Positions 18,581-60,202 of a stretch of 64,000 bases of DNA are shown here, one piece after another. Origin of the DNA: Psammoneis japonica (lineage: Eukaryota); the NCBI GenBank assembly GCA_008632985.1, contig QPGO01000045.1, positions 124,001 to 188,000 of the forward strand, given 5' to 3'. Both the position numbers and the translations under genes were made by a program. The first letter of the stretch is position 1; the number at the start of each line of letters is the position of its first letter. Under the pieces are notes generated by a model. It had not been told where the DNA came from, made no database searches, and saw only the letters and a list, made by a program, of their open reading frames with translations.

Positions 18581-18629
18581 CTTGCTTGACACTCAATTGT
18601 CTTTCTTATCTCACAGCCTCTGGGGCCTT

Positions 18630-18650
18630 CGCCTGTCACACTTCGAAGTG
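18630..18650 (-). promoter_or_regulatory. Putative non-canonical primer-binding site (complementary to a tRNA-Asp anticodon arm)
   Basis: No TGG-type PBS after the 5' LTR; minus-strand gtgacaggcg, 11 nt from the LTR, is complementary to CGCCUGUCAC of eukaryotic tRNA-Asp(GUC). Confidence 0.45.
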
Positions 18651-20855: not shown

Positions 20856-22199
20856 ATGCCGCGCACATTGAAACCAGCAACGAATTGAATCATGCATCAC
20901 CGTCATCAATGTCACCAGCCAGCTCAATTTAGAAGTGCATGCAAAGGCAGCAGTGGCCCCTTTGACAGCACCAAATTGGAGGATGCTCACCTTGTCCTGC
21001 TTGCAGGCTTTTTTGCGTTGATTTAACTATGAAAGCAAAGCAGTGATGAGCAAATCTTCTTTCTGCAGGTCTCACTCGCATGGCACCGTGAACTGTGAGG
21101 TGGCAAAAACTCTGCAGCGACTGGAGATCTCAGCAGGAGGCCTTCCAAGTTGACTCAGAGGACAATCAGCTGACCAACTTTGCACACCCAAGGATGCTTT
21201 AGCCAAAAGTCTGATCTAGCCTGAAGCATTGGGTCCAGACAGTTGGGAGCTGAAAAGAAGATTGAGAAAAAGTGCTGCTTGGCGGTTCTCCACAAAATCA
21301 CCTTCACTGCATGTTGCAAGATGCGCCAAACAGTGTTTGAGTGCATCATCTCTCATTGCACCCACGTTGTTTGGGCCCAACACAAACAAGCAGAAATTGT
21401 TCTTTGTCATTCCAAGAGCAACAAAAACACTCATCTTGGGAAAGCAGAGCTTCCCAAGGAGCCCCAGAGTTAAAGCAGAGCTTGCACAAAGAGAGCAGGA
21501 CACCTGGTTGGTTGACAGACAAGCCATGACTTTCCCTCTTTTGCATGTCCTCCAGCTGATGCTCTTTGACATGATCAAACAGCTCAAGAGCAAAAGATTT
21601 GACTCACACAAGTGACGCACATTTGGCGCTTCTCAGCCAATCCACAAAAGAACAAGAAACAGGCAGCACACCAATGCAAAAAGCTTCCCTTTTGGTGCTT
21701 TCTCAGCCAGCGCACAATGAGGAATCTCCACAGCACCAAGAAAGAGTGACCAGGACCTGCTGATGTGGCAAAAGAGAAATGTTGGCAGCAGGGCTTTTTT
21801 GGCCACTTTTGCGCGGCATTTTCAACTTCAGAGAAAGAGCTCAAAAAAAGACCCAGTGCTGTGGTTGCTCTTCATTTTTTGTCAACTTCACTGATGACCA
21901 AGCACCTCTTTTTTCTCTTGCTGCAGCTGCTGCCATGGCGCCATTGTTCTGGAGTGTGCTGACAGCTGCAGTGCTTTGAGTGCATGTGCAACACAGTGAG
22001 CACTTTGTTTGTCAATGACGAAGGTGACACAGCCACTGTCACGGCACAGCTGACAATGATGGAGAGGTGCTGGTGTGATTGCCAAGGTGCCCAACAGCGC
22101 TCTTCATCCCTTGACTTGTTCTGACCAGCACAAAAGAGTTTTTGTTCACTTTGTTTTCAGCCAAGGACCATCTTTGGAATTTTGGGGAGAAGATGACAG

Positions 22200-24990: not shown

Positions 24991-25119
24991 AGGGGCCGGT
25001 GCGCAAGATTCACGCGTTATCTTCTTTCCAGCTGCATGACACGTGTTCACAATTTGACGAAATTGACATCGATCCAGAACCGATCAAGCTCAAACGAGTT
25101 GCATAAACAAACGAAAACA

Positions 25120-25803
25120 ATGGCTCGCCCAATGTCACATTGCATCGTGTTGCTTTTTGGTGTCTTCTTCTTCGCGCCAAACCAATGCGCCGCATTTGCG
25201 CCGCAACAAGTGTCATCGACCACTCGACGACAACTCGACACTACTGCTTCTCGTGCATTGCACATGGCGGCCCCACCAATGGTGGGGGACAACGCTGATG
25301 AATCAAAGATGTCTTCACAAACTCGACGTGAGTCAATCAAGAAAATATTTGGAGGAGTTGGTTTGGCGTGGTTGTCCATATCAAACCCGGCATTTGCCGA
25401 AGAGGAGATGGAGCTCAAGCGTGCAAACAATGCCAAAGCGGCCTTTGACGACTTGCGTTTCGAACTCAATGATCCCAGCGGTGGTGTCGCATATCTTCAA
25501 TCTAAAATTGACAAGGAAGACTTTCCTGAAGTTATGGAGTTCACAAAGGGATATGATCTGGAACTACGAAAAAAGAAAATTGGACGAGCCAAGAAGCAAT
25601 TGACAGACGTTGCCTTTCGAGACACGGCTACGCTGACGGCGAATGCGATTACGTTTGATTTGATTGGGATTAACCGTAGTTCGAGACCGGGACAAGAAAA
25701 CAAGGAGCAAGCCAACAAGTATCTTAATGAGCTCCGGACTGACCTGAGTAACATGATTGACTTGGAAAAGACAATCGACTACGAAGACATCAATACGTTC
25801 TAG
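25120..25803 (+). CDS. Plastid thylakoid-lumen protein, PsbQ-like
   Basis: Signal peptide + AAFAP, twin-arginine TRRES + hydrophobic stretch + PAFA cleavage site, helical mature domain (YDLELRK, FDLIGINR); 227 aa. Confidence 0.8.
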   Translation: MARPMSHCIVLLFGVFFFAPNQCAAFAPQQVSSTTRRQLDTTASRALHMAAPPMVGDNADESKMSSQTRRESIKKIFGGVGLAWLSISNPAFAEEEMELKRANNAKAAFDDLRFELNDPSGGVAYLQSKIDKEDFPEVMEFTKGYDLELRKKKIGRAKKQLTDVAFRDTATLTANAITFDLIGINRSSRPGQENKEQANKYLNELRTDLSNMIDLEKTIDYEDINTF

Positions 25804-41081: not shown

Positions 41082-41304
41082 AGTCTCCCTCACCCTCGAA
41101 ACACATGCAAAGACTATGGTATAGCTGGAGCAAGTTCATGCGGCACCATCAAGAGAGTGCACTGATGTGCTGACTGCACTCGAAAACATTTCACACCGGG
41201 TGTCAGCTGCACACCACCACCAAGCTCTCGCCCTGAACAACCAAACAAGTCAAGGGATTTGCAGATGAACTTCAGCCACCCAGGCTGTTTGCTGCTGTTG
41301 CCAC
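41082..41304 (-). pseudogene. Diverged duplicate of the 3' end and 3' flank of the RPH1-like gene
   Basis: Direct repeat of 63403-63613; encodes SSKQPGWLKFICKSLD versus SSKQPGWLKFIYKSLD in the gene. Confidence 0.85.
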
Positions 41305-44073
41305 GGCAAATGAGCTTGTGGTGGACCCCCACTCCAAGTTCTGAACCTCTGCTCCATTGTTGTCATGCACTTCATCGTCTGCACAAACATGGCAACACAC
41401 GTTGATTTCTTCATTTTCTGTTGTCTCTGGAATTTCCACATCAATGATCTTGCAGCCTGGATCTTCAATGCAACCCCACTCCTTGGGCCAGTTTGGGTGC
41501 TTGGTGAAGTCTTCATGAAACACCTTGATTGATGTTTCAAATTTGAGCTTCTTTTCTCCTTCTTCGTGTGGCAGCCATGTGGTGGCACATGTGGCTTCAT
41601 CCGCTGGCCCCTGTCTTCGGACTCGAGGCATTTTTTCATCCTGGCAGAGTGCTCTTCATTCAAATTAGAGATGTGTTTGTTGTGCTTGTCCACTCAAAGT
41701 GTGCAAGCCAGAGAACTTTAAAAGTGATCACAAGACTGATTTAGAGATCAAAGTGATTTTGAGTTGATCCAAATGACGACAAACTGCACAGAGGACAGTT
41801 GTTGCTCTCACCAACAGAGACATTGCAGCATCGCGCCCCTTGAGTCAGAACTTTCATCTCCTTCCTAAATCCGCCAATGCTGGTGTGCTTTCCACAGCAC
41901 CTCTGGTTGTGTCCCTCCAACCCAGTCACAATTGTGCAGAAACTGCCCTCATTCTTGGCAGTGGCTTCAATCCAAGCCTCGCAATTTCTGCAAAACGCAC
42001 CGCTGCCATTGCAACCATGCCACACAAAAAGATGAGCACATTCTCTCCAACATTGAGCTCCACTTCTCTTGTGAATGTGCAGATGCAGTCAAGAGTTTTG
42101 TCCTCTCCAGAAGAGTGCCTGTTTTTCTCTTCTTGTTGAATCTCCCGTCTGCCAATTCTTTGGGGAGCTCTTGACCAGGGTTTTCTGAAAGGAGCTCCAC
42201 TTGCTTTTTTTTTCATCCATGGCATTTCATTTCCTTTCATGAGTTTTTGCCCTGCTTTCTTCAGATTGACACATTGTGGGAACAGCATGTGGCACACAAT
42301 GGCAAGCAAGCGTCAGTTGAGTTGGAAGAAAATTTTCACATGTCTCTTTGAAAAAAAAAAACAGCAGAGCCAGGAATCATCTTCTTTTTCAACCCATGAC
42401 AATTTCAGAAAGAACTGATCTTGTGATTCTCATTGGGTTGAGTGGGTGAGGCAATGCTTCCATGTCAAAGCCCAAAGACTTGAGTGTTTCATTGGCAACA
42501 TCTCCAATGCTGCAGACACCTGGCATCTTTGGTCCCTTTGTTTCTTCTGGAGCCAGCATCTCCCTGCCCCCTTTCATGCTGTCATGAAGGCAGGTGGTGC
42601 AATGAACTCTGGCTGGCTCCTTTGCTCATCAAGCAAGCAGCACACTCCACAAGGTCATGGCACTGTGGAGCCATGTGCACTGCACCATTTTTGCACTTGC
42701 AAAGCATTCCCCCCGTCCGTGGGCAGCACCAAATCTGGACTTGGGTGCTTTTCTTAAGATCATGGATGGACACGCACCAGGCTCCTTTTTGCACTTTTTG
42801 TGGAAACTCTTGTGGGATCATTTGCTTGTGCTCATCAGACAAAAAGTGGAACACAAGATGGGAGAATTCACTTCTTTGTTGCTGTGGCATGCCGGGGTTT
42901 TTCTTTTCTTGTTGTTTTCCACATCTGCCAGTGGACTCCTGATGTCCCTCTTCTTGATGACAGGTGCAGCGACCATTCAGCCCTCATTCCCCTCAGCTTC
43001 ATCCTCATCTTAAACTTCCAAATCTGAGTGATGCATGAAATGGGCTTGAGCATCAGTGTCAGTCTAAAGCACCACAATGAGAAACACCAAAGACAAACGT
43101 GCGGCTGTGACATGCCATGTCCATTGTTGCCATCATCAGCTTTGCCTTTTTCTTCATCCTCACTCTCCTCAGCTTTGTCCTTGCACTCATCCTCTTCCTC
43201 CCCAGCATCTGAATCTGGACAAAGTGCTGCAAAAGAGAAATTGTTGTCATGAAGTGACAGGATTTGAACAGGATTTAGGTGCGCGCGAAATGTCGTGCGC
43301 TGTTCAGTTTACCGCGCACAGTTTTGTGTGCTTTGGTTCCGCGCGTTCGCGCGCGATGTAGTTTGCTTTCAAGCCACAAGGCTCACAAGAAAACAACGTC
43401 TTGCACGTCTTTCGGCTCCTGTGACGGTCTCTGAGCAGAGACTCATCTGCTGTTCAGACAGCAGCAAGGAGTCATTGTTTGAATTCTTGCCATTTGCCTT
43501 CAATTTCTGTCAGATTGACAGTCTTGCTCATTGTCAACCCATTGAGCAACCGCCATCGTCGTCGTTGATTTACCAACGATGCCACGCTCAATTCTGCCTG
43601 GACCTCCGTGTGTGTTCTATGCACATTGGCAAGTCTGCGTGCATTCAATGCCAGGCATCGGCAGGAAGTTAACGTCACCGTCAAGTCTCCTTGCCGCTGC
43701 ATGTCTGGATTGATTGTGCTGCCTTTTGTCGCTGAAGACATGCACTCAACGGTCACATCCAAGTCTGTCCTTGATCCTCATCCCTTGACATGCCCACTCA
43801 ACGGTTAACGGTCAAGAACCCTGCATGTTCAAGGAACTTCATCGCTGAAGACATGTGTGTGTCTGCATCTTCACGGCCAAGAACTTGCACCCACTCTTTG
43901 GACTGCAGCTTTGCCACCACTCTACAAGCACACCGAGTCCATTGTGCCTGATCTACCCCGGACCACTGGTGCTCTGCAGTTCCACCAGTTCTGCGAGGAC
44001 GACTGTGAGAGCAAGCAGCCATGATTGCAGCCTGCGTTGGGGCGAGGGTGTTTTCCGGTGTTTTCCCACGTTT

Positions 44074-44469
44074 GATGGGTTCCAGTCCCAGGTGGGACTT
44101 TTTGTGACATTGGGCCCGCAGAATTCTACGTGCGAGCTCTGTGGTAAAATTGTCAAGCAATGGACACATGAATGATCGCCAACAGAAAAAGAGACAATTT
44201 TGCGAACGCATCTCCTCCTCCACACTTGAAGCACATTCTTTGCAGCATGCCCGGGTGTGTTCTTCAGACATTGAAGAATGTGCCCAGCGCATTTTTGTTG
44301 ACACAAGTGTGGATGACAGAAAGCCTTTGGCTTCGCAAAACAGGCAGTGTGGAACAATTTTTTGTGACAGAACACGCAGAAATGTGCGCGCGAAACATGC
44401 GACGGATGACAAAAAACAATTGTGCCACAGTTCAGCAGTGCAAGGTCCCACCTGGAGCTGGAACGCGTC
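44074..44469 (+). mobile_element. GACGCG-MITE copy 1 (396 bp, TSD GTTT)
   Basis: TIR gatgggttccagtcccaggtggga / tcccacctggagctggaacgcgtc; gttt on both sides. Confidence 0.88.
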
Positions 44470-45221
44470 GTTTGTTCATTCGTCCACAGCGCCCAATGCC
44501 TGCGTCAACTGGCCAGCCTGATCGGGAAATCCAACCGACACAAAATGAGAACGGTTTGGGGATCTTGTCCACCTCTGGTCAGCTTGCCTGCAGGGGCTCA
44601 CAACCCACTCTGCTCCGCTCGCAAGCAACCCAAAGCACCGCCAGCTGCGGGTTCGGACGTGCCGGCACAACTCTGCGGACCGGATGGGAAGTTTGGCACT
44701 TGACAATGAACGGGACAGCACAACCCGGCGACTTCTGATTTTAAGACAGTTCAAGATTTCAAGCCAAGTCTGTTTCAAGTCAAGTCTGTTCCCACCCAAG
44801 TTTCAAGCCCATCTCCCAACAAGAATCGCTTGTCCTGACACCGCTTTTGTCTGCCATGGTTCTCACTCGTCAGCAACAAACCGATGGTTTTGAGCACATT
44901 GTTGGAACCGCACTTGCCCAAGGTGCTGGAAGCCCTCTTCGTTTGGCTTTGACCCATGACGACACGGACTCGTGCCAAGAACTGTTCACATTCACACCTT
45001 CCCAAATCGACTCACTTGAGTGCCACAATGGCACTGATGTGATCCCATTGCCCCGAGGTCATGAGAACATGTTAGCAGCTCCAGCCAGTCTGCACATTGT
45101 CAAAGCACACGAAGGCCTTGATGTTGCCAATGACTCCTCGTTGTTCACGCATGAGGAGTTCCTTGCCTGCCGCCCCAGTCCCGACTGCATGTCTTCTGTG
45201 TCCGTCGGCAGCTCACCTCTC

Positions 45222-45617
45222 GACACGTTCCAGACGCAGGTGGGAATCCGCGTGACATTGGGCCCGCAGACTTCTGCGTGCGAGCTCCGCAGCAAAATTG
45301 TGCGGCAATTAAAATGTCAATGATCGCCAACAGAAAATGAGGCAATTTTGCGAACGCACAAACTCACACATGATTGAAGCACATCATTTTTTACTTGGCC
45401 AGTTACATTCTTCAGACATTGAAGAATGCAACTGGCGCATCATTGTTTCTATAAATTTGTCATGTGAAACATCTGGGGCTTCGCAAAACAGCGAGTCTGG
45501 ACAATTTTTTTTAAATGTCACACGCAGAAATCTGCGCACGAAACATGCGACGGATGACAAAAATTGTTGTTGTCACATGTCAGCACTGCGAGCTCCCACC
45601 CAGGGCTGGAACGCGTC
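45222..45617 (+). mobile_element. GACGCG-MITE copy 2 (396 bp, TSD TCTC), hypermutated
   Basis: TIR gacacgttccagacgcaggtggga / tcccacccagggctggaacgcgtc; gap-free alignment to the reverse complement of 51889-52284. Confidence 0.93.
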
Positions 45618-45952
45618 TCTCGCACCCCCACATGTCACCAACCCGACCAAGGCACGCGACCCGGTGCAAGACTTCAAGCGCGGCATCAAGCGTGACCCCA
45701 CTGCTTTCACGGCTCTCAAATCCAACAAGCAGTGGCACACTTGGCAAACCTCACTTGTGGCACAAGCCCGTGCCCAAGACGTCGAGTGCATTCTAGACTC
45801 GTCGCACAAACCGACCAGCCCCGAAGACAAACTGCTCTTTGCTGAACAGCAAAAGTGCGTGTTCGCCGTCTTTGAACACATCCTTCTCACCGACAAGGGC
45901 AAGGCTCTCATTTGCGAAAATGCAGGGTCTTCTGATGCCCAGACCGTCTGCC

Positions 45953-46336
45953 GACGCAGTCCAGGTCTGGGTGGGACCTCGTGCTGCTGAACTGTGACAT
46001 CGACAGTTTTTTTGAATCACGTCGCATGTCGTGCACGTAGATTTCTACATGATTTTTTTGATGTTTTGTGTCATTTTACGGTGCACTTGTTGAGCGATCC
46101 GTCCAACAACTTTTGACATTTTTTGTTACAGCGCGATTCTATGATGTCTTGAGAATCGCGCAGGGCAGGTGCATTTGCAAAAACGTCGAGTGGCAAGAGG
46201 CATGATTGTGCCACAAACTTGGCCGTTTGTTTGATGTTGAAGACAAACATGTCCATCAATTAAATTCTCGCACTACGGAGCTCGCACTCTGCGGGCCCAA
46301 TGTCACACGGAGTCCCACCTGGGGCTGGAACGCGTC
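45953..46336 (-). mobile_element. GACGCG-MITE copy 3 (384 bp, TSD TGCC)
   Basis: Same TIR family; tgcc on both sides; interior closest to copy 4. Confidence 0.9.
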
Positions 46337-46479
46337 TGCCGCGCATTGTCCGAGTGCGCGCTTGCCTCCACCTGCGCATCTGTCGAGTCCTCCACCTTGC
46401 TCACGCACCTCACCACCGCACCCCTTGGTGATGGCACTTGGAAAGGTCCGACCCACGGGCTCATCCTTCATTGGCAGGA

Positions 46480-46868
46480 GACGCGTTCCAGGTCCAGGTG
46501 GGACCTCGCACTGCTGAACTGTGACATCGACAGTTTTTTGAATCTCGTCGCATGTCGCGCACGTAGAATTCTACGTGATTTTTTGACATTTTGTGTCATT
46601 TTACGGTACACTCATTGAGCGATCCGTCCAAAAACTTTTGACATTTTTTGTTGCAGCGCGATTCTGTGCTGTCTTAAGAATCGCGCAGGGCAGGTGCAAT
46701 TGCAAAAACGTCGAGTGGTGAGAGGCACAATTGCACCACAAACTTGGCCATTTGTTTGATGTTGAAGACAAATGTGTCCATCAATTAAATTCTTGTGCTG
46801 CGGAGCTCGCACGTAGAATTCTATGGGCCCAATGTCACACGGAGTCCCACCTGGGGCTGGAACGCATC
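46480..46868 (-). mobile_element. GACGCG-MITE copy 4 (389 bp, TSD AGGA)
   Basis: gacgcgttccaggtccaggtggga / tcccacctggggctggaacgcatc; agga on both sides. Confidence 0.92.
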
Positions 46869-47479
46869 AGGATCAGTTGCGCAAGTGCGAGGCACTCATC
46901 CCGGCCAGTGGCCACTTCTCTGAAGGACAGAAGCGCATCATGCTCGAGAATGCCGCACATCCTGTCGAGGAACTCCGCGCCATCAAGAACCAAGCTGATC
47001 AGCATCGCACGCAGAGTGGCAAAAGCCTCACACACGATCAACATTGTGGCTTGCTCCTCTCCACGGCGGCTCAATGCGACAGTGCATTTCAACCCAAGAC
47101 GACACCGAAGTGCAAGTCTTGTGCATCATGACAAGCAGTGCAATGCTGCAACTCATCAAAGCAGACATGCACATTCATTGTTTCTTTGTGCGCATCTGAC
47201 AACATTGCCAACCATTGCTTCACTCAATGGCACTGCTGTCTGTTTGTTGCCGGGCCTTGCCCAGCTGGGAACAAGCCTGTCAGGGTGGGCCCTTCTGTGG
47301 CAAAAACTTGTGCAGTTGCAGCAGAACCTTGGGAGCAACATCCACATGTTGAGCAGCAATTGTGGCTGCATGCCACCATGAGAGAGGAGTGGTGATTGAC
47401 AGAAAAGATTGGCATGAGATCCAGGTTGTGCAGTGTGTGAGCAATGCACATTTCTGCTCATGTCATTTGCCATGCATTT

Positions 47480-50400
47480 TCACATGAATTAAATTTCATG
47501 TGAAAAAAAGAAACATCCTCCTTCATGTTGCCAGCTGGCCCAATGCTCCGCCCACCCCATTCCCCATTCTGGGTGCCTCTGTCACCATCATTCCCTTTCC
47601 TGCTCCCGTTGCCTTCATCCCCACCTGCAATGCTCTTGCAGAGCTCTCTCTGCTTGCCAAGGCAAGATGGCCATGGTCATTGCTGACCATCTCAAGCTGC
47701 CCCTTGTGGACCCCACCAGTGTCAACCATCTCTGAACCTTTGGCCCCTCATCCCCATGTCTTCTGTGCCCATGATGCTCAGCCAATCAAGTGCAAGCCTC
47801 TCTTCTTTCCATCTCCATGCAGTGTCACCCTTGCAAATGCCAACCTGCACAACTGAGCCAGCTTCCCCTCCAACCTCCTCACTTCTGCCTTGGCCTCTTC
47901 TTTCAATGCTGAAGCAGCCTCTCAACATCCTGTGCCTCTGCTGCTGTCCAGCTGCCTGTGCCTTCATGTGATTCTTTTTCCTGTCACACCGTTGAGCTGC
48001 TTGCTCAAGATTGGCAGCTGCCTGAGGCTCTAGACCAAGCTCCATTCCCTGCAGCCCAACCTCCACCTTTGTCTTGGGCTCAGGTGGCTGCTTGCTCCTT
48101 GCCTGCCAAGCCCCCTCCATCCAAGCATCCCTGTCCTTCTCCAAACATCTCTGCTCATCCAGTCAAGGTCCCCAATCAGGTGATGCAGACCAAGTCTGAC
48201 AACTCCACTGCTCTTTGGCAGCCCCAATGCAACACTGAGCTCTTGGAAGCTCTCAATGCCTTTGTCACTGCCCGTTGCCCCACCCACATTTCTGACAGGA
48301 CACCTCGTGGAATCCGTCAGCACCCGCACCCTGCTGACTTGCCCCTTTCACTCTTGGTCTCCTCCATCCTCAGATTTGTTGTCTCTCCTCTCTGCTGCAG
48401 TTTGCAGCCACCTTTGCCAACAGCATCTCCATCAATCTCCATCTCAAGCAGCTGCAGAGTTTGTTGAAGCAGCTGGTTTGCATCACATCTGCAGACATTG
48501 CAGTCACAGCCAACATGCCCACCTCCCTCCTGTGCACCTCCACAATCACTTGCAAAACAAGCACTTTGCTCCCCACACCACCCCAATGCCAACATCATCA
48601 CCTCCACCCTCCAAGATGCCAGGCAATGGCACTCATCTTTTCAGTGTCTCCACTCCCTTGAGCTTGGTCCTCCTCCCTCCTTTCACACCTCCTCTTGCTT
48701 GCTGCAAGAAGCTCTCCTCCTCTGCTCACAAGGAACTTTGCACTGCTCTCCACCATGTGGTCCAGTGGGATCTTGCCACTTCTTGGCCCTTCTCTGACCC
48801 CACTCATCTCCCTCCTCAGTGACAAAGTGACTCTGCTCCTTTTTGGAAGCTCCTGCTGCTCTTCAAGGCCATTCTTCTCACTCCCATTTCTTGGCATTCT
48901 AAATTTGGCCCTGCAATTGCCTCTTGCCTCTTGCCTTGCTCTCTTCCATTCTGGCTGCGTTCATCTGCTTTGTCCTTGGGTTCAGTCAAAGCCCAGATGA
49001 GCTCTCAAAACATTGCTCAATCCATCAGCAGCAAAACTCCCTTTCTGCACATGCCACCAACATCAGCTCATGCACCTGGAGCACTGAAAAGTGTCACATG
49101 TGGAAACTTGCAACGGTTCTGGCTGCAAAATTCAGGTGTGCATGATTTCATAAAAGTCACAAAAAACTTTGCAGACTGTCTTGCTGACTGAGGACACGAC
49201 ACCAGGACATGCTGCGCGAGCTGTTCATGGAAGCTGCCAACTGTCTTGACAACCCCTGTCAGCACTCCAGCTCCAACAATGCCGCAGACCCAAGCTCTGC
49301 CCTGTTTTTCCACAGTGAATTCCACCCCCGTGGGGCATCACATGCCTCTGTTTGACATGTTGGATGGGTGCAATGGTTTCAAGCATCTTGCACTTGCTTG
49401 CTTGTGACCTCGAAACTTGAGAGACACTTTGTTGCAAACTCAAATGCAAGAACCAGAGGGCAAGCATGCATCCAACTACATCGAGCAATTAGAACCAGAG
49501 CTCTGAGTTGGCGACTCCATCGTGATGACACACCTCCAGCAAAAAACTCCAATGGGCTGCCTTCTGCACCTGCGGAGCTTCAGCTTGTGCCCATTGGAGT
49601 TTTTTTGGGGTTGTGCCAAACCCTGACCCTGTTTTTTGCACGCAGTTGATCTGTTCTTTTTGGTCTTTGGCAGGCGTTCACAACACACCATTGAGAACGC
49701 CAATGCCCACTTTTTCTCCAATGGAGTTTTGGGCCAAAGACATGCACGCTTCACACGCATCGGCACTTTCAATGGTCACATCCAAGCTGTGACGGCAACG
49801 GCCATTAAAAATTGCCAATCTTGATCTTTTTGGCTCATGAGAAAACATGCCAACCTTACATCATCAAGCTTTGTGGGTTTGGCAAGACTGATCTAAAGTC
49901 TTTTCAGTGCCAAAGGCACTCTGCACATTGAAGAACCCCAATGGCAGCCACACTCAAGCTCCATCCTCCCCGTCTCCACCCTCCTGACATGCCCACTGCT
50001 CCTTCCACCCACTCCACTTCCTCTCCCAACAAGGAGCCCATTGAGCTCTCCACCAATGCTCTTCTTCCTGCTCTCTCCAAGTGCAAGCCCGGCACCACTG
50101 CCCAGGTCTTTGCTGACTCTGCTGGCCTCTTTAAGTCCCACACTCTCTTCATTCCACCAAAACTCCCTCTGACACAACTCACAACATCACTGCTTGGTGC
50201 CTTCCTTCCACAAGCTCACACTTCTTCTCCTTCATGGCTCTGCCTCCCCACCCATCCTTCCTTTGCCCACCTCCAATCATTTTGTTGCTCTTCACAAGGA
50301 TCCTGCTGATCTGAACAAGCTGCACCCCATTGGTGTCAGCACAGCCCTTTGCCCCTCTGTCATTGTGACCCTTTTTGTCTCTGATTTTGCCAAGTGCTTG

Positions 50401-51400
50401 CTCCCTGATGGCCAATTTGGCACTGGTGTCAAGGGCGGCCTTGATTGCCTCATCCACTCTGCCCATGCCAACATTGAGCACAACCTGCCCTCTGCTGACC
50501 CTGCCAAGGCTCTCATGCTTCTTGACCTTGTCAACATGTTCAATGAAGTCTCCCATGATGCTTGTCACCACCTTCTGGCTTCCGCTGATGCCCTTTGCCC
50601 ACTCCTTCCTTTCTTTGACTTGGTGTGCCAAAACTCCAATGCCTGTTGGCACTGCCACCCTGACTCCACCTGGGATTCTTTCATTCAATGAGAACACTTT
50701 GCCCAAGGCTGTCGTCTTGGCCCTGTCTTCACCAGCCTTGTTGCCTCTCTTGCAGTTTGCCTGCTCAACCAGGAACTCCTTCAGCACTTCCCCAGCCACT
50801 CTCCCACCACTTCTGTTGGGTGCTGCTCTCTTGATGATGCGCATGTCTTTTTGTCTCACTCTGACCTCTTGTGGTTCCTTTGGCACTTCTCAACCCTTGG
50901 CAACCCTTGTGACATCGCCCTTGACCTCCACACAAAACCAAGATCCTCCTTGCATTCATCTCTGACAACAGCCCCATCCCCACTCTCCCTCATTCTCAGG
51001 CTGACTCTCTCCACACTGCTCTCTCATCTCACACCTCAGTCCTGCTGACAACCCTTCCTGCAACCCTGAGCCCACCTCTGGTGTCTGCTTTCTTGGCTGG
51101 CCTCTTGGCTCCCCCAAGGCTTTGCCAACTCCTTCCTCTCTGACACCTCCTCTTCCCTCTCTGCTCTTTCTGACAAAGTTGGCATGCTTCTCACATGTCT
51201 CCATGACAAGCAAACTCAAGATCAGCTCTTCAAGCACTGTTTCACACCCTCCTCTGTGCACCTTCTTGGTGCTGACTTCTGTCATGACTTCGGTCCCATC
51301 TGGGATGCCAACAACCCAGTTCTGACTGCCTGTCATGATCTGGGCATTTCTTGACTTCAATCCCAAATTGTTGCAAACTCATGAGCCAAGTCTTCCTTTG
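47480..51400 (+). mobile_element. Decayed CRE-like non-LTR retrotransposon (RT), probably with an unrelated insert at ~49000-49900
   Basis: FVALHKD..KLHPIG, QFG.GVKGGLD, LLDLVNMFNEVS, FAQGCRLGP and LDD RT motifs at ~50270-50850; pyrimidine-rich plus strand; boundaries approximate. Confidence 0.72.
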
Positions 51401-51888
51401 AACACCAGTTCAGAACCAACTGAGTTTACAAGCTTCTTGATTCTAAATTGCACCCCACTTTGAAGTGCGAACATTCTTGTCCACAATTTTAATCTCAACC
51501 CTTTTAAACATTTGCTGTTCCTTGTTCCTTCATCACATCTCTTTCCAATTGCAATCCACCATCCTTGCCTGCAACATCCTTCTACATTTTGTCTCTTTGC
51601 ACTGTTGTTTTAAAAGCAAATGTTGCAACTGCCATTTGTGCTTTGCTGGCAATTGTCTTGGAGCTTGCCTCTTTGTTTTTGCTGTGATCTGGATTTTGTT
51701 GTTTGCTGCAGTTTACATTCACATGCCAGTTTGGTTTGTTGCCATGACTGCAATTGCTTCCATGCCATCAGTGGCAGCCACTGTCTGCAAGGGCAGGTCC
51801 TCTCCCACTGGTGTGGCCCATCCATCCTCTCTCTCCTTCCTCTTCTCCTCTTTGCCTTCCATTGCCTCTGTTCCTTGAAGAACCATGC

Positions 51889-52284
51889 GACGCGTTCCAG
51901 CCCTAGGTGGGAGCTCGTAGTGCTGACGTGTGACAACAATAATTTTTATCATCCGTCGTATGTTTCGTACGTAGATTTCTACGTGTGATATTTAAAAAAA
52001 ATTGTCCAGACTCGCTGTTTCGCGAAGCCCCAGACGTTTTATATAACAAATTTATAGAAACAATAATGCGCCAGTTACATTCTTCAATGTCTGAAGAATG
52101 TAACTGGCTAAGTAAAAAATGATGTACTTCAATCATGTGCGAGTTTGTGCGTTCGCAAAATTGCCTCATTTTCTGTTGGCGATCATTGACATTTTAATTA
52201 CCGTATAATTTTACTACGGAGCTCGCACGTAGAAGTCTACGGGCCCAATGTCACACGGATTCCCACCTACGTCTGGAACGCGTC
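51889..52284 (-). mobile_element. GACGCG-MITE copy 5 (396 bp, TSD ATGC), unmutated
   Basis: gacgcgttccagccctaggtggga / tcccacctacgtctggaacgcgtc; atgc on both sides; full TpA content; perfect 17-bp-stem hairpin at 52070-52108. Confidence 0.95.
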
Positions 52285-53299
52285 ATGCACCAAATCCTTT
52301 GTTCTCCTCTTGGTCTTTCATCACCCACTTGCTCAGTTCATTGTGCTTCTTGACCCCCTCTTTGCTCCATCCTTGGCTCCTCTTGGCCAATCCCCCCACA
52401 GCTGTTGCTGTGTGCTTTGCAGCTGTGGCATCTTCTGCCATCAGCTTTCTTCACCTTGCAATGTTGTTGTCCTTCTCCAATTTTTCCACCATGTCAACCA
52501 CCTTGCCACAACAGTTTGAGCATGCCAGCAGAGCAAAGGCCTCCAATGACATGGCAGACCACTCTTGGAGCAAATTGGTTGTGCTTCTGCCAGACTGCAC
52601 TTGGCCCACCACAGTTGGTGCTGCCACTTTCAAGTTTCAAGAACCACTGTGCGTGTCTTTGTCAGCCCTGTCCTTGACCCAATCTTTGCACTCAACCAGC
52701 AACCCCTCCAAAGCAGCCTGTCCATGACTGTCAAACACATGCACCGTGTTGCTTGCCTGTCATCCTTCTCCTTATGTTGTCCTGCATGTTGTTCCTTTTG
52801 CAGCTGCATTTTTCCCTGAACACCTCTTTGTGTGTGTCCCAGAGTGCCTCTGGCACATGTTCCATGCTCCTCAACTCTTGCAAAAACACCAAAAGTTCTC
52901 GGTCAAAGATTGTGAACTTGTGCCATGGCTGCAGGCTTTCATTGGCCACCTTTGTCAACACAGACCCTGTCAATTTCTTGCTGACTGCTGGAGCTTGATC
53001 CATCACATGACATCCCTCCGTGGGAGTCACAACAGAACTTGAAAGAATTGGCTCAATTCCCTGCACTCATTTGTTTGTGCATTGAACAATCCCATCACCA
53101 CCACAGGAGGGCTCATGGCAACTGCAAAGCATGCCAAAGCGGCCAACTCTAACTTGTCAGTGCAGCTGTTGGCCTTTGTCCTGCCCTCCTCAACCCAACT
53201 TGCTGTTTGATGTTGCACTCCCACCATCTTGCATTGTCTCACTCCTGTGACAACCTTTTCCTCCATGTTCTTTCCCATTCTGACAGGCGGCTCTTGTGT

Positions 53300-55500
53300 T
53301 GCAATGTTTGCTGCTTTCTGTCTGGTTTGTGACATGAGAAGTCATGAAATGAGCACACTTTGCAAGTGTTCTTCTCCATTTTGCCATTGCTTGCTTCTCT
53401 CAGATTGATTCAAACAGGTGTTCTTTGCATTGTTTTTGAGTGCACATTTTTGACTCAACATTTGAATTTTTCAAAACCTTCTGCTGTTTTGAATTGCTGT
53501 GTTCCATTGCAAACAATTCATGCACGCAACTGCAGATTTGTGCAGTTTAAAAATTTTCTCCCAGCCCTGCAATTTGTCACTCATGAATGTGTTGGCCATT
53601 CCATTTTCTTTTCTGACACAACTGCAGATTCATGTGGTTTTAAAATTTGCTCCTGACCCCACAATCATTCACTCACAACTCAATTGACCATTCCCTCTTC
53701 TTTGGTTGTTCACAATTGAATTGACTGTTCCCTCTTCTTTTCCAATGCCCTCCCTCTCCAACTGCTTCAGCTGTCACCCAAACAGAGCAATTCTGTGTTT
53801 TGACAATGGACATCTGCATGCATTCAACACAAATTTGCTCATTCTCTGTTCTCATCCAATGGTGGAATGCTGCGCCATTGTCATGCAAATGTGGCAGCAG
53901 CAAACTGCAGCAATTGCCAGGATGCACGTTCCCTTTGCTGCCGACACATGCCGGCAATCAAGCATCAATTTGGTCATGTTGCTGATGGTGGCATGGAATC
54001 ACATGGAGGGGCAGCAAGTTTTGATTTTTGCCAAGGTCATTGTCACCCCACCCATTTTGGTGCTCAGCTTTGCAGCCTGTTTGTGTTTGGTGTGCTGGGA
54101 TCAGGCCTGACACTCCTTGCAGTTGTCCTGCTTTGGTCAATCAGCCATTCCTTGCCAAAGATGATGCTGTGCGCAGTTTGTGCCATGAGAACAAGAATGC
54201 CAAGATTTTCTTTGACAACTGCAATGGGCAGATGCTGTTGGACAAAAATGTGACACAGAATTGCTTTGAGGAGATCTTGTTCACTGAGTGCACAGAAGGA
54301 ACAGCTGTGGCTTCACTCAACATGATGATGTTCTGTGGTCACACCCACAAATGGACTCATGAACCCTTTTTTGTTCCTGCCTGTGAAACCAATCTGTCAT
54401 GGGGTGGTGAGGTTGACAGGCACTTTTTTCACAAGCACACCCAAAAACCATCATGCACCCGCAGTGTGCGGCAACTGAGTTGCTGGTTAAACAGCAAATG
54501 TCATTTTGGAAACAGTCCCGTGAACTGTCACAAGAAGGCGGCATTGTGGCTCCAACATGCTGATGCTCCTGTCCTGTGATTGCACAAACAATGGGCAGAT
54601 TGGTCTGGCAATGAAGCAGCCCATGAAGAACCACCTGTGGAGTGTGGCAACAATTGGCAGCAGCAACAAGGCACCCAGACTTGTCCTTCTTGTTTTTCTT
54701 GTCCATGTTTGGGATGAAGCCAAGAGGATGCCAGCAGCGACAATCATGACAAGCCTCTTCTTGAATCATTGCAAGTGAGTGCATGAGATGCTCCACCCCA
54801 TGTTGATTGACTGCATTGACTCCAGTCTTGTTGGAACAATTGACAAGGCAAACACAAAAATTGGGTGCAGTTTCCTTGGCATTGGAGCAACATTGCAACC
54901 ACTTTGAGCCAACAATTGACAGTCACCAGGATGGCCCAGAAACTGAATGCCACCACCCTTGAAGCTGGCACCAGGATCTAAATCACTGTCAAAAGGAGGC
55001 AGCTCACAAGGTGACCAAATGTCACCGGGGCTCACCCGCAACTTTGAAAGATTGTAGAAATCTGGCTTGGTGAACAGATCCTGTGGGGAGTCTCAGTGAA
55101 ACTGCAAACTGGGTGGGAAAGGTGGGGAATGGCAACATTTGGGACCATCCTGCTGTTGTTGTGTGTTGGATTGTTGCACTCAAGAAACTCCACAGCAGCA
55201 GTGTGGGGGAGAGGGGCATTGGGGAACAACTCCAGAAGTTGCTTCGTTGCTGCAGCAGTTGCAATGGGAGGCTTTTTCAAACCCAATCTTTTTTCTGTGC
55301 ATGCTCTTTGTGGACTGTTCTCATGACTTTGTCAATGAAGTCAATTGCAGCACCTGACTGCCAACAGAGATGATGGAGAAGCCAAACCATCTGTGCAATG
55401 CTGGGTGAGCAGCAGACTGGAGGGACATCAAAGTCCTCATCAGGGGCAAGGTTGCGTGCTGGTCCCAGTGAGTTCTTGAGGTCAAACAAGGAAACTGCGG
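53300..55500 (-). mobile_element. Decayed Plavaka-like transposase relic
   Basis: Fragments GSWCQ, NKTG.....VEHLMHSL..I.EEA....CWHPLGFIPNM resemble the 'G.WY / DKT...EP.MFTL...R....WRPLGYIP' pattern; heavily frameshifted. Confidence 0.45.
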
Positions 55501-58500
55501 CTGAGTCAACACAGACAGGAGGAGGAGCTGTGTCTTCCACCAGATGTGACATCAAGGGTGGACCATGGGCCCAAAGCACCGTGGAGAGAATCCACTGCAA
55601 TGAACTCAGGAACATCCACAGGGCTGTCCTCTTCAAGGGCAGATGCATTTGCAGTGGCTGCATTGGTGGTGGCTGCATTGGCAGTTGTGGCATGCAAGCA
55701 ACCAGAGCATTCAACAGAAGGGGGGGGGGCACAGACCATTTCCAGCAGAGGGGGAGGGGGGGCAACAGGAGAAGCATTGTCGGAGTGCATGGGAGGAGGT
55801 GGATCTGGACTCAAGCAGACTGTGGGAAGGGGGGCTGGGGTTCATCATCAGCAAAACCAAACATTGAGTCATTGTCATTGTTGCCAAATGTGTCATTGGC
55901 TGTCTGGAGGGGGAAATGAGTTGATGGCATTTGAGACAGCAGCAACAGAGTGTCAAAGGGCTTCCTCCTTCTCACGGCAGGGTGCATGCTTCTGGAGATC
56001 ATGCAGGGCAGTGTTGGAAAAGGGAGCCAGGCAATGCAGACATTTGGGTCTGTCAGCATTGGACCCAAGAGAGGCAACAGAGGCAGCATCCTGAGGAAGT
56101 GAAGAAACCGATTTCCAGCCAGAGAGGGAAGATGTTCAGTTCTTGAGTGTGTGGCTGTGTTGCAGGCGAAGGGAGAAAACAGTGGAAGTGGTGCAGCAAC
56201 AAAAAAGGTGACACTGCACCTGGTTTTCCAAGACAAGAAAACCATGTTGTCCACAACACAGACAACCAAAAGAGGTTGGACCAATGGAACAGAGGCAATT
56301 GGCAGCAATGTGCCAACTGAGACCGTGCTCAGAAAGAAATCCAGAGCCTTTGCACCAAGGACAAACAAGCAAATGCAAAATTGAGTGATGTGACAACATG
56401 CAAAAAATTCATGATGTCAACATTGCATCACCATGACATCAAAACCACATTCTCCACTTGCGAAGGGGTGGTTGAAGCAGATCGCGAAAACAACCCCTCA
56501 AGTGGTGCAACAACGAAACAATTTAACAAGTGTGTTTGAAGAAGACAATGTAGATGCTGAGCATGCAACCATTTTGCATGATGCAGCAGACAAGCGATTG
56601 GAAGAATCTGTGCCAGTTGCAGTGAATGCCTCTGAAGAGGGAATGCCTCCATTTCGAACAGGTGATGCTGACAACAGCTGCATTGTTGAAGAAGATGCTG
56701 ATTCAGAAGCAATGGATGAAGATGATTTTTCTTTCCCAACAACAGATGCAGCATGTGATCCTTTGTCATGCACAGCTTTGAACATTTCCACAGTTGGATC
56801 GCATGTGACATTTAACACAAGCACTGATGAATGCTGGTGCGAGAATTGTCTCGATGAAAGGATCTCAGAATCAGAAAAAATTGTTGCAGTCTGTTGTTGC
56901 AAAAGGAGGAGGAAAGAAAACTGTCTTGGCTTTGGTGATTCCATGAATCAACATGACAATGGCAAGCAGCAGGCCTTTCAAAACTTGCCGGGATGCCTGT
57001 TGGGCACAGCAGATTTCTTTTTCAACAACATCAACCAGAAAGGCAACAACGACAAAGCTCGAGAATGAGCAGGAGCACAGAAAGCATTTGCTTGGCCATT
57101 TCCAAAAGCGGCCGCTGTGGCTTCAAAATTAAAGATCAAAGGCAGCTCCAGTGCCGCCATGGGGACTGCGCCAGATGTGTGGAACGACATGCTGGGAACA
57201 CTGGTGCGAGTGGTGCCACGTCCGCGGCGGCATTCCAAGAAGTTCTCCAAATTCATGGCAGACTTTTCCAGCCTCTGGTCCTCTTGATGGATGCCTTTTT
57301 GTGCAAATTCTCTCCCAACAATGCAGGCATGACCCACGCCATGCGTGTTGATGTCATGTTGTCAGACAATGCCATGATGTTGATTGCACAGGCCCGCGAA
57401 TCCTTCCAGCAATGTGCGGGACAATCATGCACAGAATTTGTGTTGGCCTTGTGGAGGCATCCACATCTGGGTGTTTCACTGCCTGAACAGTGCTGTCAGA
57501 ATGCAAGCGACAGGCAACAAATCATTGAAAAGCTGACCAGCATGCCCAGAACATTCTGTTTTGTGCTGGTCCGGTGGAACTCGATTCTTCATGCGGGGTT
57601 CCTGCGCATCCAACACGAAAATGGAGGAAGCATTGGTGCCCGCAAAAGCCGACAAAGTTGAGCAGCAGCTTAAATTCTGATGTTGGTGCTGCTCTCTCCG
57701 GGACGACTGCCCTCTCTTGTGAGCTGGGAATGCACCTCCAACTCTGAGCCAGACACGTTTCGCATTCAGACTGAACAATTGATTCTTTTTTTGCAAAAGG
57801 TGGCATTGCAATGTGGCCATGAACATCAGAGCACTTGTGATCAATGCCTCCGATGCACAGCTGCTGACGATTGGCAATCGCCATCGTGACAATCTGAAAA
57901 TCTTAGAAATGGCACCGCACACACATTGAGGTTGGCCAGGTCCATGCACAGTGGGACTCCCACTGCTAGAGTGTGGGTGGGCCCAAGTAATTCAAAAAAC
58001 CGTCAACGGCCATTGCTGTGTAATTTGGCAGCATTTTGGTGCTCTGTGCATGAGGCATTTATGTAGAAATTACGTGCGCACAATTGACAGGGGAAGCGAG
58101 CGTGGAGAAGAGACGACGCGAGCGAAGCACGAGCGAAGAGACCGACAATGATGCAAGTGCCGGAGAGAGACGCAAAGACAGCAATCCAACGATGTTGCAA
58201 GAGGGCGCAAAAGAGAGAAAAGATCCATTTGAGTTAGCACCACATCTTCAATAAAAAGAACAAAGCAAGACAACATTGGTGTGCACAAAAACTTGCACAG
58301 AGAAGCACGGCACCAGCGCCTGAAAAATGACCACATCTGCGGTGAGGTGGAACAACACAAGGAGGTGAGAACACACTTTTCTACAAGTGCAAAGCAACAA
58401 CGAGCAAACAACCAATGTAAACTCACCAGCAGGGTCAAAACTTGGGGTGCCTGGATCGTCAACGGTGGGCAGGGAGGACAGATGGAAGAGAGGCAGTCTG

Positions 58501-60202
58501 GTGGTTCCACGGAGCAGGACGACAAAAGCAGGCAGCAAATCGGCATGAGCAATGGTGGAAAGTCGGAGCTTGGGATCGAGTGACTGGTCCGGTCCATGCA
58601 AATCGTGGTAGAAGCTTGGAGAACGGAGGCAGCACCATGGTGGTGTGGCATGGACCGGGGAGAGAAGAAGTGCCGCGGCGGAACGGCATCGAACGGCGAC
58701 GGAGCCAAAAATGGTGACGGCGACGGCGCAGACCTGTGGACTTAGACATCCCCATCTTCGATTCCTGTGCATCAAGATGCGGGACAAGGAGGTTCAAGGT
58801 GAGCGCCATTGCGAACGAGAACGGGGAAAAAGACGCATGATTCCACGAGAATCAGAACTCACCACATTTTGAGTCATTCTGACCCATTCCAGAGCCAGGG
58901 CTCACTCACATGGCACGACCCAATGGCTCACAACACTGTCAAGCAAGGCAGGGGTCGGGAGGCGGTGTCGTACCGGTCAAATCGGCCAAAAGCGCCATTG
59001 TCGGAGGGAGCGGTGGTTGTCGATCGGCCGCTCGGAAAAATTATGAGCCATCAACCCGACCGCGCACCGTTCGGAGTCGCACAGAATTTCTCGGTACAAA
59101 ATGTACACAAGTGTACGTCAGTATAAAAATCGTGTAGAATGGGTGTAAGTAGAAACATACTGTCTCTCTGTGGACTACGAGGATTCTGCCGTTAAACTAT
59201 ACCAGTATGTATAATTCTACGTGGTGGATTTGAATCAATCCCACCAACGTTTTTAAATTTCGATCGTAATAACGGCTTTAGGTGCTATGATGATTATATA
59301 TATAAGTTTGAATCAAATATCATATATAGCGTTAATAATTTTGAATGATTGCGCGACTGCCAGTCGGCACCAAAAACCGTCGCCAATAAGTAAACCTGCA
59401 GTACAAAAGTACTCTTTTGCAATACTTTGGTACTTCAGTCTTGCACATGAAAGCGCTCCCTAAGTAGTTAACGGTCGAATTATATATATAAAATCCTCAC
59501 AGCGGGAGACCCTATATACGCTCCCGTGTGCACTCAACGCGCCTCGGTTACGACCTTCTCGTTGGGTTGCACAATGGCGAGAACGACCCGGCCGAACCCT
59601 CCTCGTCGGGCTCCATGAGTGCACAGGGCGCGCACCTACAGCACTGTACAGCAGTGCAGTTATGCACTTTATGAAGAAAGAGTCTTAAAAATAAAAAGCT
59701 CCACCTGGAAAACAGACATCGTTTTGCAATGGCCTCCAGCAAACAGAGAACACGTGGCAGCGGAAAAGACACAACAGGAAATGTTGAACTTCCCTGAACC
59801 ACAGAAACATCCATCAAAGCGTCAAAAAGCAACCGAATTGATCGATCGCAACACCATGATGTCGGAACATGTTTGCCGGCAGTGACCATGACGCCAGAGG
59901 TCGGTTTCGGCCAATGCATGCATCCAGCCCGATGTTGGCATGCCGCATGGTGAAACGGTTCCAAGACGTTCTTTTTGCCGGGATTCCTCGTGCATTCTAT
60001 GTGTCTTTGTACTGACGACTGTCCGAGCGCCCTTCGAAAGGCATCGATTCAAGCTGCCACAATTTCTTTGAAGCTGCAAGCAACAAAGACATTGCATCGC
60101 CATCATCACCATGTTGTCCTCTGTCCTCTTTGTGAATGCCGTGATCAATGTCAGCCACTGTGACTTGATTGCAGTTGTGATTCAACGCAAGAGCGCAAGC
60201 GA

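What the first reader, a model, noticed from the sequence alone, without database searches (positions are those of the whole stretch)
45222..52284. Before/after pair of one MITE: nearly every difference is a TpA transition
Copy 2 (45222-45617) aligns without gaps to the reverse complement of copy 5 (51889-52284). Hand count: ~30 substitutions, ~24 TA->CA/TG (e.g. attatacggtaa->attgtgcggcaa, gttatataaa->gtcatgtgaa, ctacgtacg->ctgcgcacg), ~6 at CpG, none in other contexts. About 24 of ~30 TpA are lost while most CpG survive. A MITE has no RNA intermediate, so RNA editing and RT error are excluded.
Basis: seen in the sequence. Interest (0 to 1): 0.9.

Follow-up and report, generated by a model that had tools for sequence, protein, structure and literature searches.

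The report
TpA-erasing hypermutation in diatom-like repeats
Two copies of one small transposon differ almost only because one has had its TA dinucleotides turned into CA or TG, and the same erasure covers over half of this window, pointing to an undescribed DNA-level mutation process aimed at repeats.

Summary
Copy 2 (45222-45617) and the reverse complement of copy 5 (51889-52284) align without gaps over 396 nt. They show 30 differences, all transitions: 24 are TA (copy 5) against CA/TG (copy 2), and 6 are at CpG.

Four results support this:
- Seven tracts, 37 of 64 kb, have TpA o/e 0.02-0.10.
- A Copia element and a GT47 gene copy inside these tracts carry His/Cys (CAT/TGC) where relatives have conserved Tyr.
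- The Copia LTR pair and MITE copies 3 and 4 differ by CA-versus-TG double mismatches.
- At all six MITE sites where copies show CA, TG and TA, copy 5 holds the TA.

The preferred target is the A of 5'-TAY-3' on either strand. Copy 5 is a young, unmutated insertion into a repeat that was already erased.

The chemistry is inferred, not shown: most likely enzymatic adenine deamination in DNA. I could not obtain the MITE family consensus because no genome is held. Seven paper searches found no report of such a process.

The parts
51889..52284 (-). MITE copy 5: unmutated ('before') copy. 30 TpA, TpA o/e 0.89, CpG o/e 1.57. TSD gcat.
   Evidence: Flanks are TpA-poor: 7 TpA in 51400-51888 and 1 in 52285-52800. 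Contigs of paralogous flank copies skip the MITE (table 5).
45222..45617 (+). MITE copy 2: mutated ('after') copy. 24 of 30 TpA converted to CpA/TpG and 5 CpG lost. TSD tctc.
44074..44469 (+). MITE copy 1: diverged subfamily, 2 TpA. TSD gttt.
45953..46336 (-). MITE copy 3: 7 TpA. TSD ggca. Differs from copy 4 by 9 CA<>TG double mismatches.
46480..46868 (-). MITE copy 4: 8 TpA. TSD tcct.
41251..51500 (.). TpA-free tract that holds copies 1-4 and ends at copy 5. TpA o/e 0.09, CpG o/e 0.44.
52501..58750 (.). TpA-free tract on the other side of copy 5. TpA o/e 0.06, CpG o/e 0.31.
13001..25250 (.). TpA-free tract (TpA o/e 0.10). Holds the Copia element, an LRR gene fragment and a GT47 gene copy.
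1..2750 (.). TpA-free tract: 4 TpA in 2750 nt, TpA o/e 0.02, CpG o/e 0.21.
13939..18856 (-). Copia LTR retrotransposon (LTRs 13939-14145 and 18650-18856). Tyr 0.25-0.35%. 4 of 6 conserved Tyr positions are now His/Cys.
19447..20757 (+). Exostosin/GT47 gene copy inside a TpA-free tract. 1 Tyr in 437 aa. 5 of 6 conserved Tyr positions are now His/Cys.
3006..3540 (.). A second TIR element of an unrelated family, with normal TpA content, sitting in a TpA-poor tract. This parallels copy 5.

Best explanation
The window comes from a diatom-like nuclear genome. In this genome, repeat-rich tracts undergo a DNA-level hypermutation that converts the dinucleotide TpA into CpA or TpG. These are A:T-to-G:C transitions.

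The preferred target is the A of 5'-TAY-3', TAC above all, and both strands are hit about equally. Ordinary CpG decay runs alongside it at a slower rate.

Copy 5 is a recent, still unmutated insertion of a very high-copy 396-nt MITE into a repeat that had already been erased. Copy 2 is the same element after the process: 24 of 30 TpA are converted, 5 CpG are lost, and nothing else has changed.

Shown here: the signature, its direction, its action in place on DNA, its restriction to tracts, and its sequence context.

Inferred only:
- The chemistry is enzymatic deamination of adenine to hypoxanthine, which is read as G, in DNA. The TAC preference recalls the U-A-C target of TadA/ADAT-type deaminases; that is recalled, not tested. 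I give this chemistry about 0.35.
- The process serves, like fungal RIP, as irreversible inactivation of repeats.

The process destroys Tyr codons and TA-containing signals. It cannot create in-frame stop codons.
For: Pair: all 30 of 30 differences are YpR transitions, 24 at TpA and 6 at CpG.

Tracts: seven tracts totalling 37,000 of 64,000 nt have TpA o/e 0.02-0.10. The 6.25-kb and 16-kb gene-bearing tracts have 0.69 and 0.65. TpA frequency is 0.0052 against 0.046, and CA/TG is 1.42-fold higher in the TpA-free tracts.

Direction:
- Copia RT/RNase H has Tyr 0.25% against 3.15% in 120 homologs. Its 6 Tyr-conserved columns now read H, C, H, C, L, Y.
- GT47 has Tyr 0.23% against 3.45% in 48 homologs. 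Its 6 Tyr-conserved columns read H, C, W, H, H, H. Against its nearest relative it shows Y>H 7 times and Y>C 4 times.
- ORFs in normal tracts have Tyr 1.8-7.7%.

Action in place: the Copia LTR pair has 2 CA<>TG doubles, 2 TA<>TG, 1 CG<>TG, 2 other transitions and 0 transversions. Copies 3 and 4 have 9 CA<>TG doubles. Control gene paralogs have 2-4 doubles among more than 300 ordinary differences.

MITE sites: 6 sites show CA+TG+TA without CG, and copy 5 holds TA at all 6.

Context: residual TpA, TpA-free tracts relative to normal tracts, is ATAT 0, ATAC/GTAT 0.004, GTAC 0.03, CTAG 0.19, TTAA 0.53. In the pair, mutated adenines are TAC 14/18, TAT 5/14, TAA 3/17, TAG 2/11.

Strands: no strand bias.

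Reads: a contig of run X1 with word depth about 70 matches the flank 51608-51845 with 0 differences.

Elsewhere: 1 of 79 metagenomic Copia loci (L026) has a 2.8-kb tract with TpA o/e 0.07.
Against: The family consensus at the 24 sites was not obtained. No genome is held, and one search printed only 40 of 392 variant places.

Run X1 may be the sample the window was assembled from, so it is not independent support.

L026 may be a chimeric metagenome assembly. Its few residual TpA do not clearly follow the TAY rule, and 78 of 79 loci show no such tract.

Copy 5 also passes the usual RIP indices: TpA/ApT 0.94 and (CpA+TpG)/(ApC+GpT) 0.88.

No enzyme, modified base or trigger was seen. No natural DNA adenine deaminase of eukaryotes is known to me (recalled). 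Two high-copy MITEs sit unmutated inside erased tracts, so being repeated is not sufficient at any one time.
Confidence: 0.72

Rival explanations
1. The signature and direction are the same, but the damaged base is the thymine. A TET/JBP-type dioxygenase would oxidise T in R-T-A to 5hmU/5fU, which mispairs with G and gives T-to-C. Alternatively, an over-active T:G mismatch repair would fix T-to-C.
For: RTA>RCA is the strand complement of TAY>TGY, so fit both readings equally. Base J and 5hmU sit preferentially at TpA steps in kinetoplastids and dinoflagellates (recalled, not tested).
Against: Near-complete conversion (TpA o/e 0.02-0.10) asks for a strongly miscoding lesion, and 5fU mispairs only weakly (recalled). 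No enzyme or modification was examined here.
Confidence: 0.12
2. The direction is reversed. Copy 5 was hit by a RIP-like C-to-T process at CpA, and copy 2 is the ancestral state.
For: Copy 5 passes the RIP indices. The change stops exactly at the repeat ends. Diatoms carry RID-related DNMT4 enzymes of unknown function (PMC9998398, passages read).
Against: Conserved Tyr>His/Cys in two coding sequences. CA<>TG doubles between LTRs and between copies 3 and 4. Six CA+TG+TA sites without CG. TpA o/e 0.02-0.10 over 37 kb. Copy 2 is unmutated under this reading although it is 92% identical to copy 5. In one search, only 1 of the 40 printed high-share variant places lies inside the MITE.
Confidence: 0.05
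3. A-to-I editing of double-stranded RNA, followed by reverse transcription or RNA-templated conversion back into DNA.
For: The changes are A-to-G with a 5' T on both strands. The MITE can fold back on itself.
Against: The MITE is a TIR/TSD class II element. The LTRs diverged after integration. A GT47 gene copy and whole multi-kb tracts are affected. The 3' neighbour preferred is C/T, not the G that ADAR prefers (the ADAR preference is recalled).
Confidence: 0.04
4. An artefact of sequencing, base calling at modified bases, or assembly.
For: Tract-wise loss of both CpG and TpA could mimic miscalls at modified bases. The only run that holds the region may be the source sample.
Against: A contig with word depth about 70 reproduces the flank exactly. 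Each site is consistently CA or TG, and coding frames stay open. Strand-wise chemical conversion would give two read populations. An unrelated metagenome contig shows the same kind of tract.
Confidence: 0.04
5. The cause is selection or compositional avoidance of TpA in these tracts, not a mutation bias.
For: TpA is under-represented in most genomes (recalled).
Against: Conserved Tyr of Copia and GT47 are destroyed. The change is 24 of 30 TpA with 0 background substitutions in the pair. Tract borders are sharp.
Confidence: 0.03

Closest known systems
Repeat-induced point mutation (RIP) of fungi
   Same: Dense transitions with a dinucleotide context wreck transposons and duplicated genes in place on DNA. 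Composition becomes bimodal along the chromosome. The edges at a repeat are sharp.
   Different: RIP turns CpA into TpA (C:G to T:A), raises AT content and creates stop codons. Here TpA becomes CpA/TpG (A:T to G:C), GC rises slightly (0.49-0.51 against 0.47), and no in-frame stop can arise. The organism is diatom-like, not a fungus. Dependence on homology and on the sexual phase is untested.
ADAR hyper-editing of repeat RNA
   Same: A-to-G changes on both strands with a 5' U/T neighbour.
   Different: ADAR acts on RNA. Here the change is fixed in DNA of a class II MITE, of LTRs after integration and of a gene copy. The 3' neighbour preference here is C/T, whereas ADAR prefers G (recalled).
TadA/ADAT2-3 tRNA adenosine deaminases and the adenine base editors derived from them
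   Same: The natural target is the A in U-A-C of the anticodon loop (recalled). TAC is the most mutated context here, 14 of 18.
   Different: The natural enzymes act on tRNA; DNA activity is known to me only from engineered variants (recalled). No such gene could be looked for because no genome is held.
Methylation-driven CpG decay
   Same: It also funnels a palindromic YpR step into CpA/TpG. It is present in the same tracts (CpG o/e 0.21-0.80) and explains 6 of the 30 differences.
   Different: It cannot touch TpA. In copy 2 it is slower (5 of 27 CpG against 24 of 30 TpA).
Thymine hypermodification at TpA (base J, 5hmU)
   Same: It is aimed at T of TpA steps in silenced or repetitive DNA (recalled).
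   Different: It is known as an epigenetic mark, not as a source of fixed T-to-C change. It is not known from diatoms (recalled).

Membership tests
MITE (non-autonomous class II TIR element) | Terminal inverted repeats | tested here: met
   All five copies start GAYRNG TTCCAG..YRGGTGGGA and end with its complement.
MITE (non-autonomous class II TIR element) | Target-site duplication of fixed length | tested here: met
   5 of 5 copies have perfect 4-bp TSDs of different sequence.
MITE (non-autonomous class II TIR element) | Short, non-coding, high copy number | tested here: met
   Length 384-396 nt. No Pfam hit in overlapping ORFs. Summed word depth is 27,000-283,000 over the MITE against 370-5,600 in the flanking bins, with single contigs at about 65.
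Fungal RIP | C:G to T:A transitions, CpA to TpA | tested here: not met
   Polarity tests give TpA to CpA/TpG.
Fungal RIP | Confined to duplicated sequence (homology-dependent) | tested here: inconclusive
   The flanks of copy 5 are themselves roughly 10-20-copy repeats, and the erased tracts hold TEs and gene-family copies. Copy number along the rest of the window could not be measured. Gene paralogs at 72-74% identity are spared.
Fungal RIP | RID-type enzyme, premeiotic timing | not testable with these tools
   No genome is held. Diatom DNMT4 is RID-related, with function unknown (PMC9998398, passages).
ADAR-type RNA hyper-editing | Passage through an RNA intermediate | tested here: not met
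   TIR/TSD element. LTR-LTR CA<>TG discordance arose after integration.
ADAR-type RNA hyper-editing | Neighbour preference 5' U, 3' G | tested here: not met
   5' T is met by definition of the signature. At the 3' side: C 14/18, T 5/14, G 2/11, A 3/17. The ADAR preference itself is recalled.
CpG methylation decay | CpG to TpG/CpA only | tested here: not met
   It explains 6 of 30 differences; the other 24 are at TpA.

The most novel reading that the evidence does not exclude
Diatom-like algae have their own counterpart of RIP built on a different chemistry. A natural deaminase would convert adenine in 5'-TAY-3' of genomic DNA. It would be directed to repeats or silenced chromatin, perhaps at rare sexual episodes, and would erase nearly every TpA of a transposon within a time too short for a single background substitution. 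Such an enzyme would be the first natural eukaryotic DNA adenine mutator.
Probability: 0.35. Interest if true: 0.95.

Novelty: categorically new. Interest (0 to 1): 0.9.

Why it matters
Every programmed or defence-type DNA hypermutation I know of deaminates cytosine (RIP, AID/APOBEC, bacterial DddA-type toxins); this statement is recalled. A tract-wide A:T-to-G:C process aimed at TpA would be a new class of genome defence outside fungi.

It would explain strongly bimodal dinucleotide composition and the spurious long ORFs that mislead gene callers: 49 ORFs of 150 aa or more in the 37 kb of TpA-free tracts against 17 in the 27 kb of normal tracts.

It would give a clock-free way to tell young from old insertions.

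It would also point to a natural DNA adenine-modifying enzyme with a defined context.

The MITE pair is a clean before/after example that makes the process directly measurable.

Tried and rejected
- Whole genome of the window: none is held, so there is no family-wide alignment and no search for deaminase or TET/JBP genes.
- Read laying for a family site table: only 40 of 392 variant places were printed, one of them inside the MITE. By my arithmetic every printed row has an other/all share of at least 0.69. If rows are ranked by share, which the tool does not state, then the copy-2 letter is not an overwhelming family majority at any of the 24 sites. I treat this as a hint only.
- No RNA holder was listed.
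- TIR pattern scans of metagenome, genome and viral contigs: 0 hits each.
- Earlier findings of this scan: nothing.
- Rfam and tRNA scans of the window: 0. The TpA-normal island at 59042-59692 is therefore not explained by an RNA gene.
- Strand asymmetry of the process: none, CA o/e is about equal to TG o/e in every tract.
- Spread among relatives: 78 of 79 metagenomic Copia loci have TpA o/e 0.34-0.90 and no TpA-free kilobase.
- (alignment) timed out. It was repeated as with 48 of the 150 listed homologs (P0121-P0171 shorter than 700 aa).
- Paper searches (listings and abstract starts only, plus passages of PMC9998398): no report of TpA-loss hypermutation. Subscription journals are not covered.
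Full report
**1. The observation**

Window 45222-45617 (copy 2, + strand) and the reverse complement of 51889-52284 (copy 5) align without a gap over 396 nt. They differ at 30 places, all transitions.

A self-BLAST with context sorting gives TA<>CA 13, TA<>TG 11, CG<>CA 4 and CG<>TG 2. There are no transversions, no other transitions and no gaps.

Copy 5 has 30 TpA and copy 2 has 6. No TpA is private to copy 2. CpG count is 27 and 23, with 22 shared.

The TpA bases of copy 5 are 15% of the element but hold 24 of the 30 differences, P = 5e-15.

**2. The element**

Five copies lie in the window: 44074-44469 (+), 45222-45617 (+), 45953-46336 (-), 46480-46868 (-) and 51889-52284 (-).

All have ~24-nt terminal inverted repeats. 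All 5 of 5 have perfect 4-bp target-site duplications of different sequence. No Pfam domain lies in any overlapping ORF.

I laid the contigs of the only run that holds the region on 51400-52800. Summed word depth was 27,000-283,000 across the MITE, 370-5,600 in the flanking bins, and about 65 for single contigs. The family therefore has hundreds to thousands of copies.

The flanks of copy 5 are themselves a repeat of roughly 10-20 copies. Several paralogous flank contigs skip the MITE (table 5). Copy 5 therefore entered a repeat that already existed.

**3. The surroundings change the picture**

The window is sharply bimodal.
- Seven tracts, together 37,000 of 64,000 nt, have TpA o/e 0.02-0.10, CpG o/e 0.21-0.80 and CA/TG o/e about 1.3-2.0.
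- The two large gene-bearing tracts (5251-11500 and 25251-41250) have TpA o/e 0.69 and 0.65 and CpG o/e about 1.
- Some 500-nt bins have 0-1 TpA where normal bins have 17-48.

Copy 5 is a TpA-normal island with TpA-poor flanks: 7 TpA in 489 nt on one side and 1 in 516 nt on the other. A second, unrelated TIR element at 3006-3540 is a similar island.

The TpA-free tracts hold a Copia element, an LRR gene fragment, a GT47 gene copy and MITE copies 1-4.

The organism is a eukaryote. One Copia homolog is labelled by its source as from the diatom Ditylum brightwellii. The LRR and presequence motifs look diatom-like to me; that is recalled.

**4. Direction of change**

(a) Copia. I compared the Copia RT/RNase H frame (14157-15356, -) with the 120 best of 459 homologs. 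Tyr is 0.25% against 3.15%. The six columns with Tyr conserved at 70% or more now read His (CAT), Cys (TGC), His (CAT), Cys (TGC), Leu and Tyr.

(b) GT47. I compared the GT47 frame (19447-20757) with 48 of the 150 listed homologs. Tyr is 0.23% against 3.45%. The six Tyr-conserved columns read H, C, W, H, H, H. Against its nearest relative (63% identity) it shows Y>H 7 times and Y>C 4 times.

ORFs in normal tracts have Tyr 1.8-7.7%.

(c) Repeat pairs within the window.
- The two LTRs of the Copia element were identical at integration. They now differ by 2 CA<>TG double mismatches, 2 TA<>TG, 1 CG<>TG, 2 other transitions and 0 transversions.
- MITE copies 3 and 4 differ by 9 CA<>TG doubles, 6 TA<>TG, 7 CpG changes and 6 transversions.
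- CA cannot become TG in one step. Such doubles need a TA or CG ancestor that was resolved separately in each copy.
- CpG is well kept in these copies (o/e about 1.07), with only 7 single CpG changes. By my estimate, CG ancestors would give fewer than one such double.
- Control gene paralogs (72-74% identity) show 2-4 doubles among 129-175 transversions and 72-105 other transitions.

(d) MITE sites. In the five-copy alignment, 57 columns are YpR in all copies. Six of them show CA, TG and TA without CG, and copy 5 holds the TA in all six.

Together these results make TpA the ancestral state and CpA/TpG the product. They also show that the change happens in place on DNA.

**5. The signature**

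Residual TpA in the TpA-free tracts, relative to normal tracts, by tetranucleotide:

| Context | Ratio |
|---|---|
| ATAT | 0 |
| ATAC/GTAT | 0.004 |
| GTAC | 0.03 |
| ATAA/TTAT | 0.06 |
| ATAG/CTAT | 0.07 |
| GTAG/CTAC | 0.10 |
| GTAA/TTAC | 0.15 |
| CTAG | 0.19 |
| CTAA/TTAG | 0.29 |
| TTAA | 0.53 |

This fits one rule: the A of 5'-TAY-3' is hit, on either strand.

The MITE pair, which is independent data, agrees. Of the 60 TpA adenines of copy 5, the mutated fractions are TAC 14/18, TAT 5/14, TAA 3/17 and TAG 2/11.

There is no strand bias.

The process is faster than CpG decay: 24 of 30 TpA against 5 of 27 CpG in copy 2. It is far faster than background, since none of the 30 differences lies outside TpA or CpG.

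It cannot make an in-frame stop codon. It only removes TAA and TAG. The TpA-free tracts have 171 TAA, 116 TAG and 1,748 TGA on both strands, and 49 of the window's 66 ORFs of 150 aa or more.

**6. Artefact check and spread**

A contig with word depth about 70 from run X1 matches 51608-51845 with 0 differences. The erased flank is therefore read directly. X1 may be the source sample, however.

Chemical or base-calling conversion would not give one consistent CA or TG per site with open reading frames.

Among 79 metagenomic Copia loci, TpA o/e is 0.24-0.90. Only one locus, L026, has a TpA-free tract: nt 1-2800 with TpA o/e 0.07, CpG o/e 0.35 and CA/TG o/e 1.71, followed by a normal 1.2 kb.
- L026 is a single Copia frame that is erased only in its 5' part.
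- It is not close to the window at nucleotide level.
- It may be a chimeric assembly.

**7. Mechanism**

Shown: a tract-restricted, context-specific, DNA-level TA>CA/TG hypermutation.

Inferred: the chemistry. My first choice (about 0.35) is enzymatic deamination of adenine to hypoxanthine. The TAC preference recalls the U-A-C target of TadA/ADAT enzymes (recalled).

The strand complement is equally compatible with the data: thymine oxidation or biased T:G repair at R-T-A.

What aims the process is open. It could be repetition, as in RIP, or silenced chromatin. The two unmutated MITEs inside erased tracts suggest that it acts episodically or slowly relative to transposition.

**8. Comparison and novelty**

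The process works like RIP in outcome but fails RIP's defining feature, since the base change runs the opposite way.

It is not ADAR-type editing. The MITE has no RNA intermediate, the LTRs diverged after integration, and the 3' neighbour preference is C/T.

CpG decay explains only 6 of the 30 differences.

Seven full-text searches found no report of TpA-loss hypermutation (listings and abstract starts only). PMC9998398 (passages read) reports RID-related DNMT4 enzymes of unknown function in diatoms. Those would predict C-to-T, not this signature.

**9. Limits**

- No genome was available, so there is no family consensus, no copy-number map and no enzyme search.
- Only one run holds the region.
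- Organism identity is known only at the level of 'diatom-like'.

Noticed in passing
window 3006-3540: A second, unrelated TIR element (arms 3006-3103 and 3442-3540, 91-93% complementary) with normal TpA content inside a TpA-poor tract. This is the same situation as copy 5.
   Followed up: partly
L026 1-4018: A metagenome contig with one Copia polyprotein frame. Its 5' 2.8 kb is TpA-free (o/e 0.07) and its 3' 1.2 kb is normal (0.55). It is either a border of the process inside one element or a chimeric assembly.
   Followed up: partly
window 59042-59692: A TpA-rich island with (TA)n runs between TpA-free tracts. It has no TIR, no Rfam hit and no tRNA. What it is remains unexplained.
   Followed up: partly
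window 35474-40685: Three tandem paralogs (72-74% identity) with a weak HPAT-like glycosyltransferase match. They lie in a normal-TpA tract and show an ordinary substitution spectrum. I used them as the control.
   Followed up: yes
window 13059-15356 (-): One open frame runs from the Copia RNase H through the LTR into an LRR gene fragment, because no TAA or TAG is left. TpA-free tracts hold 49 of the 66 ORFs of 150 aa or more and would mislead gene callers.
   Followed up: yes
window 47000-54000: Strong pyrimidine excess on the + strand (GC skew down to -0.40, AT skew to -0.28), together with the lowest CpG o/e (0.16-0.29 in 2-kb windows). This is not explained by the TpA process, which shows no strand bias.
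   Followed up: partly
window 53524-53703: Two adjacent 88-nt direct repeats, 73% identical, inside a TpA-free tract.
   Followed up: no
window 25120-25800 (+): An ORF with a signal-peptide-like start and an 'AAFAP' motif. It resembles a plastid-targeted lumen protein (recalled). A TpA-free tract ends at its 5' side.
   Followed up: no
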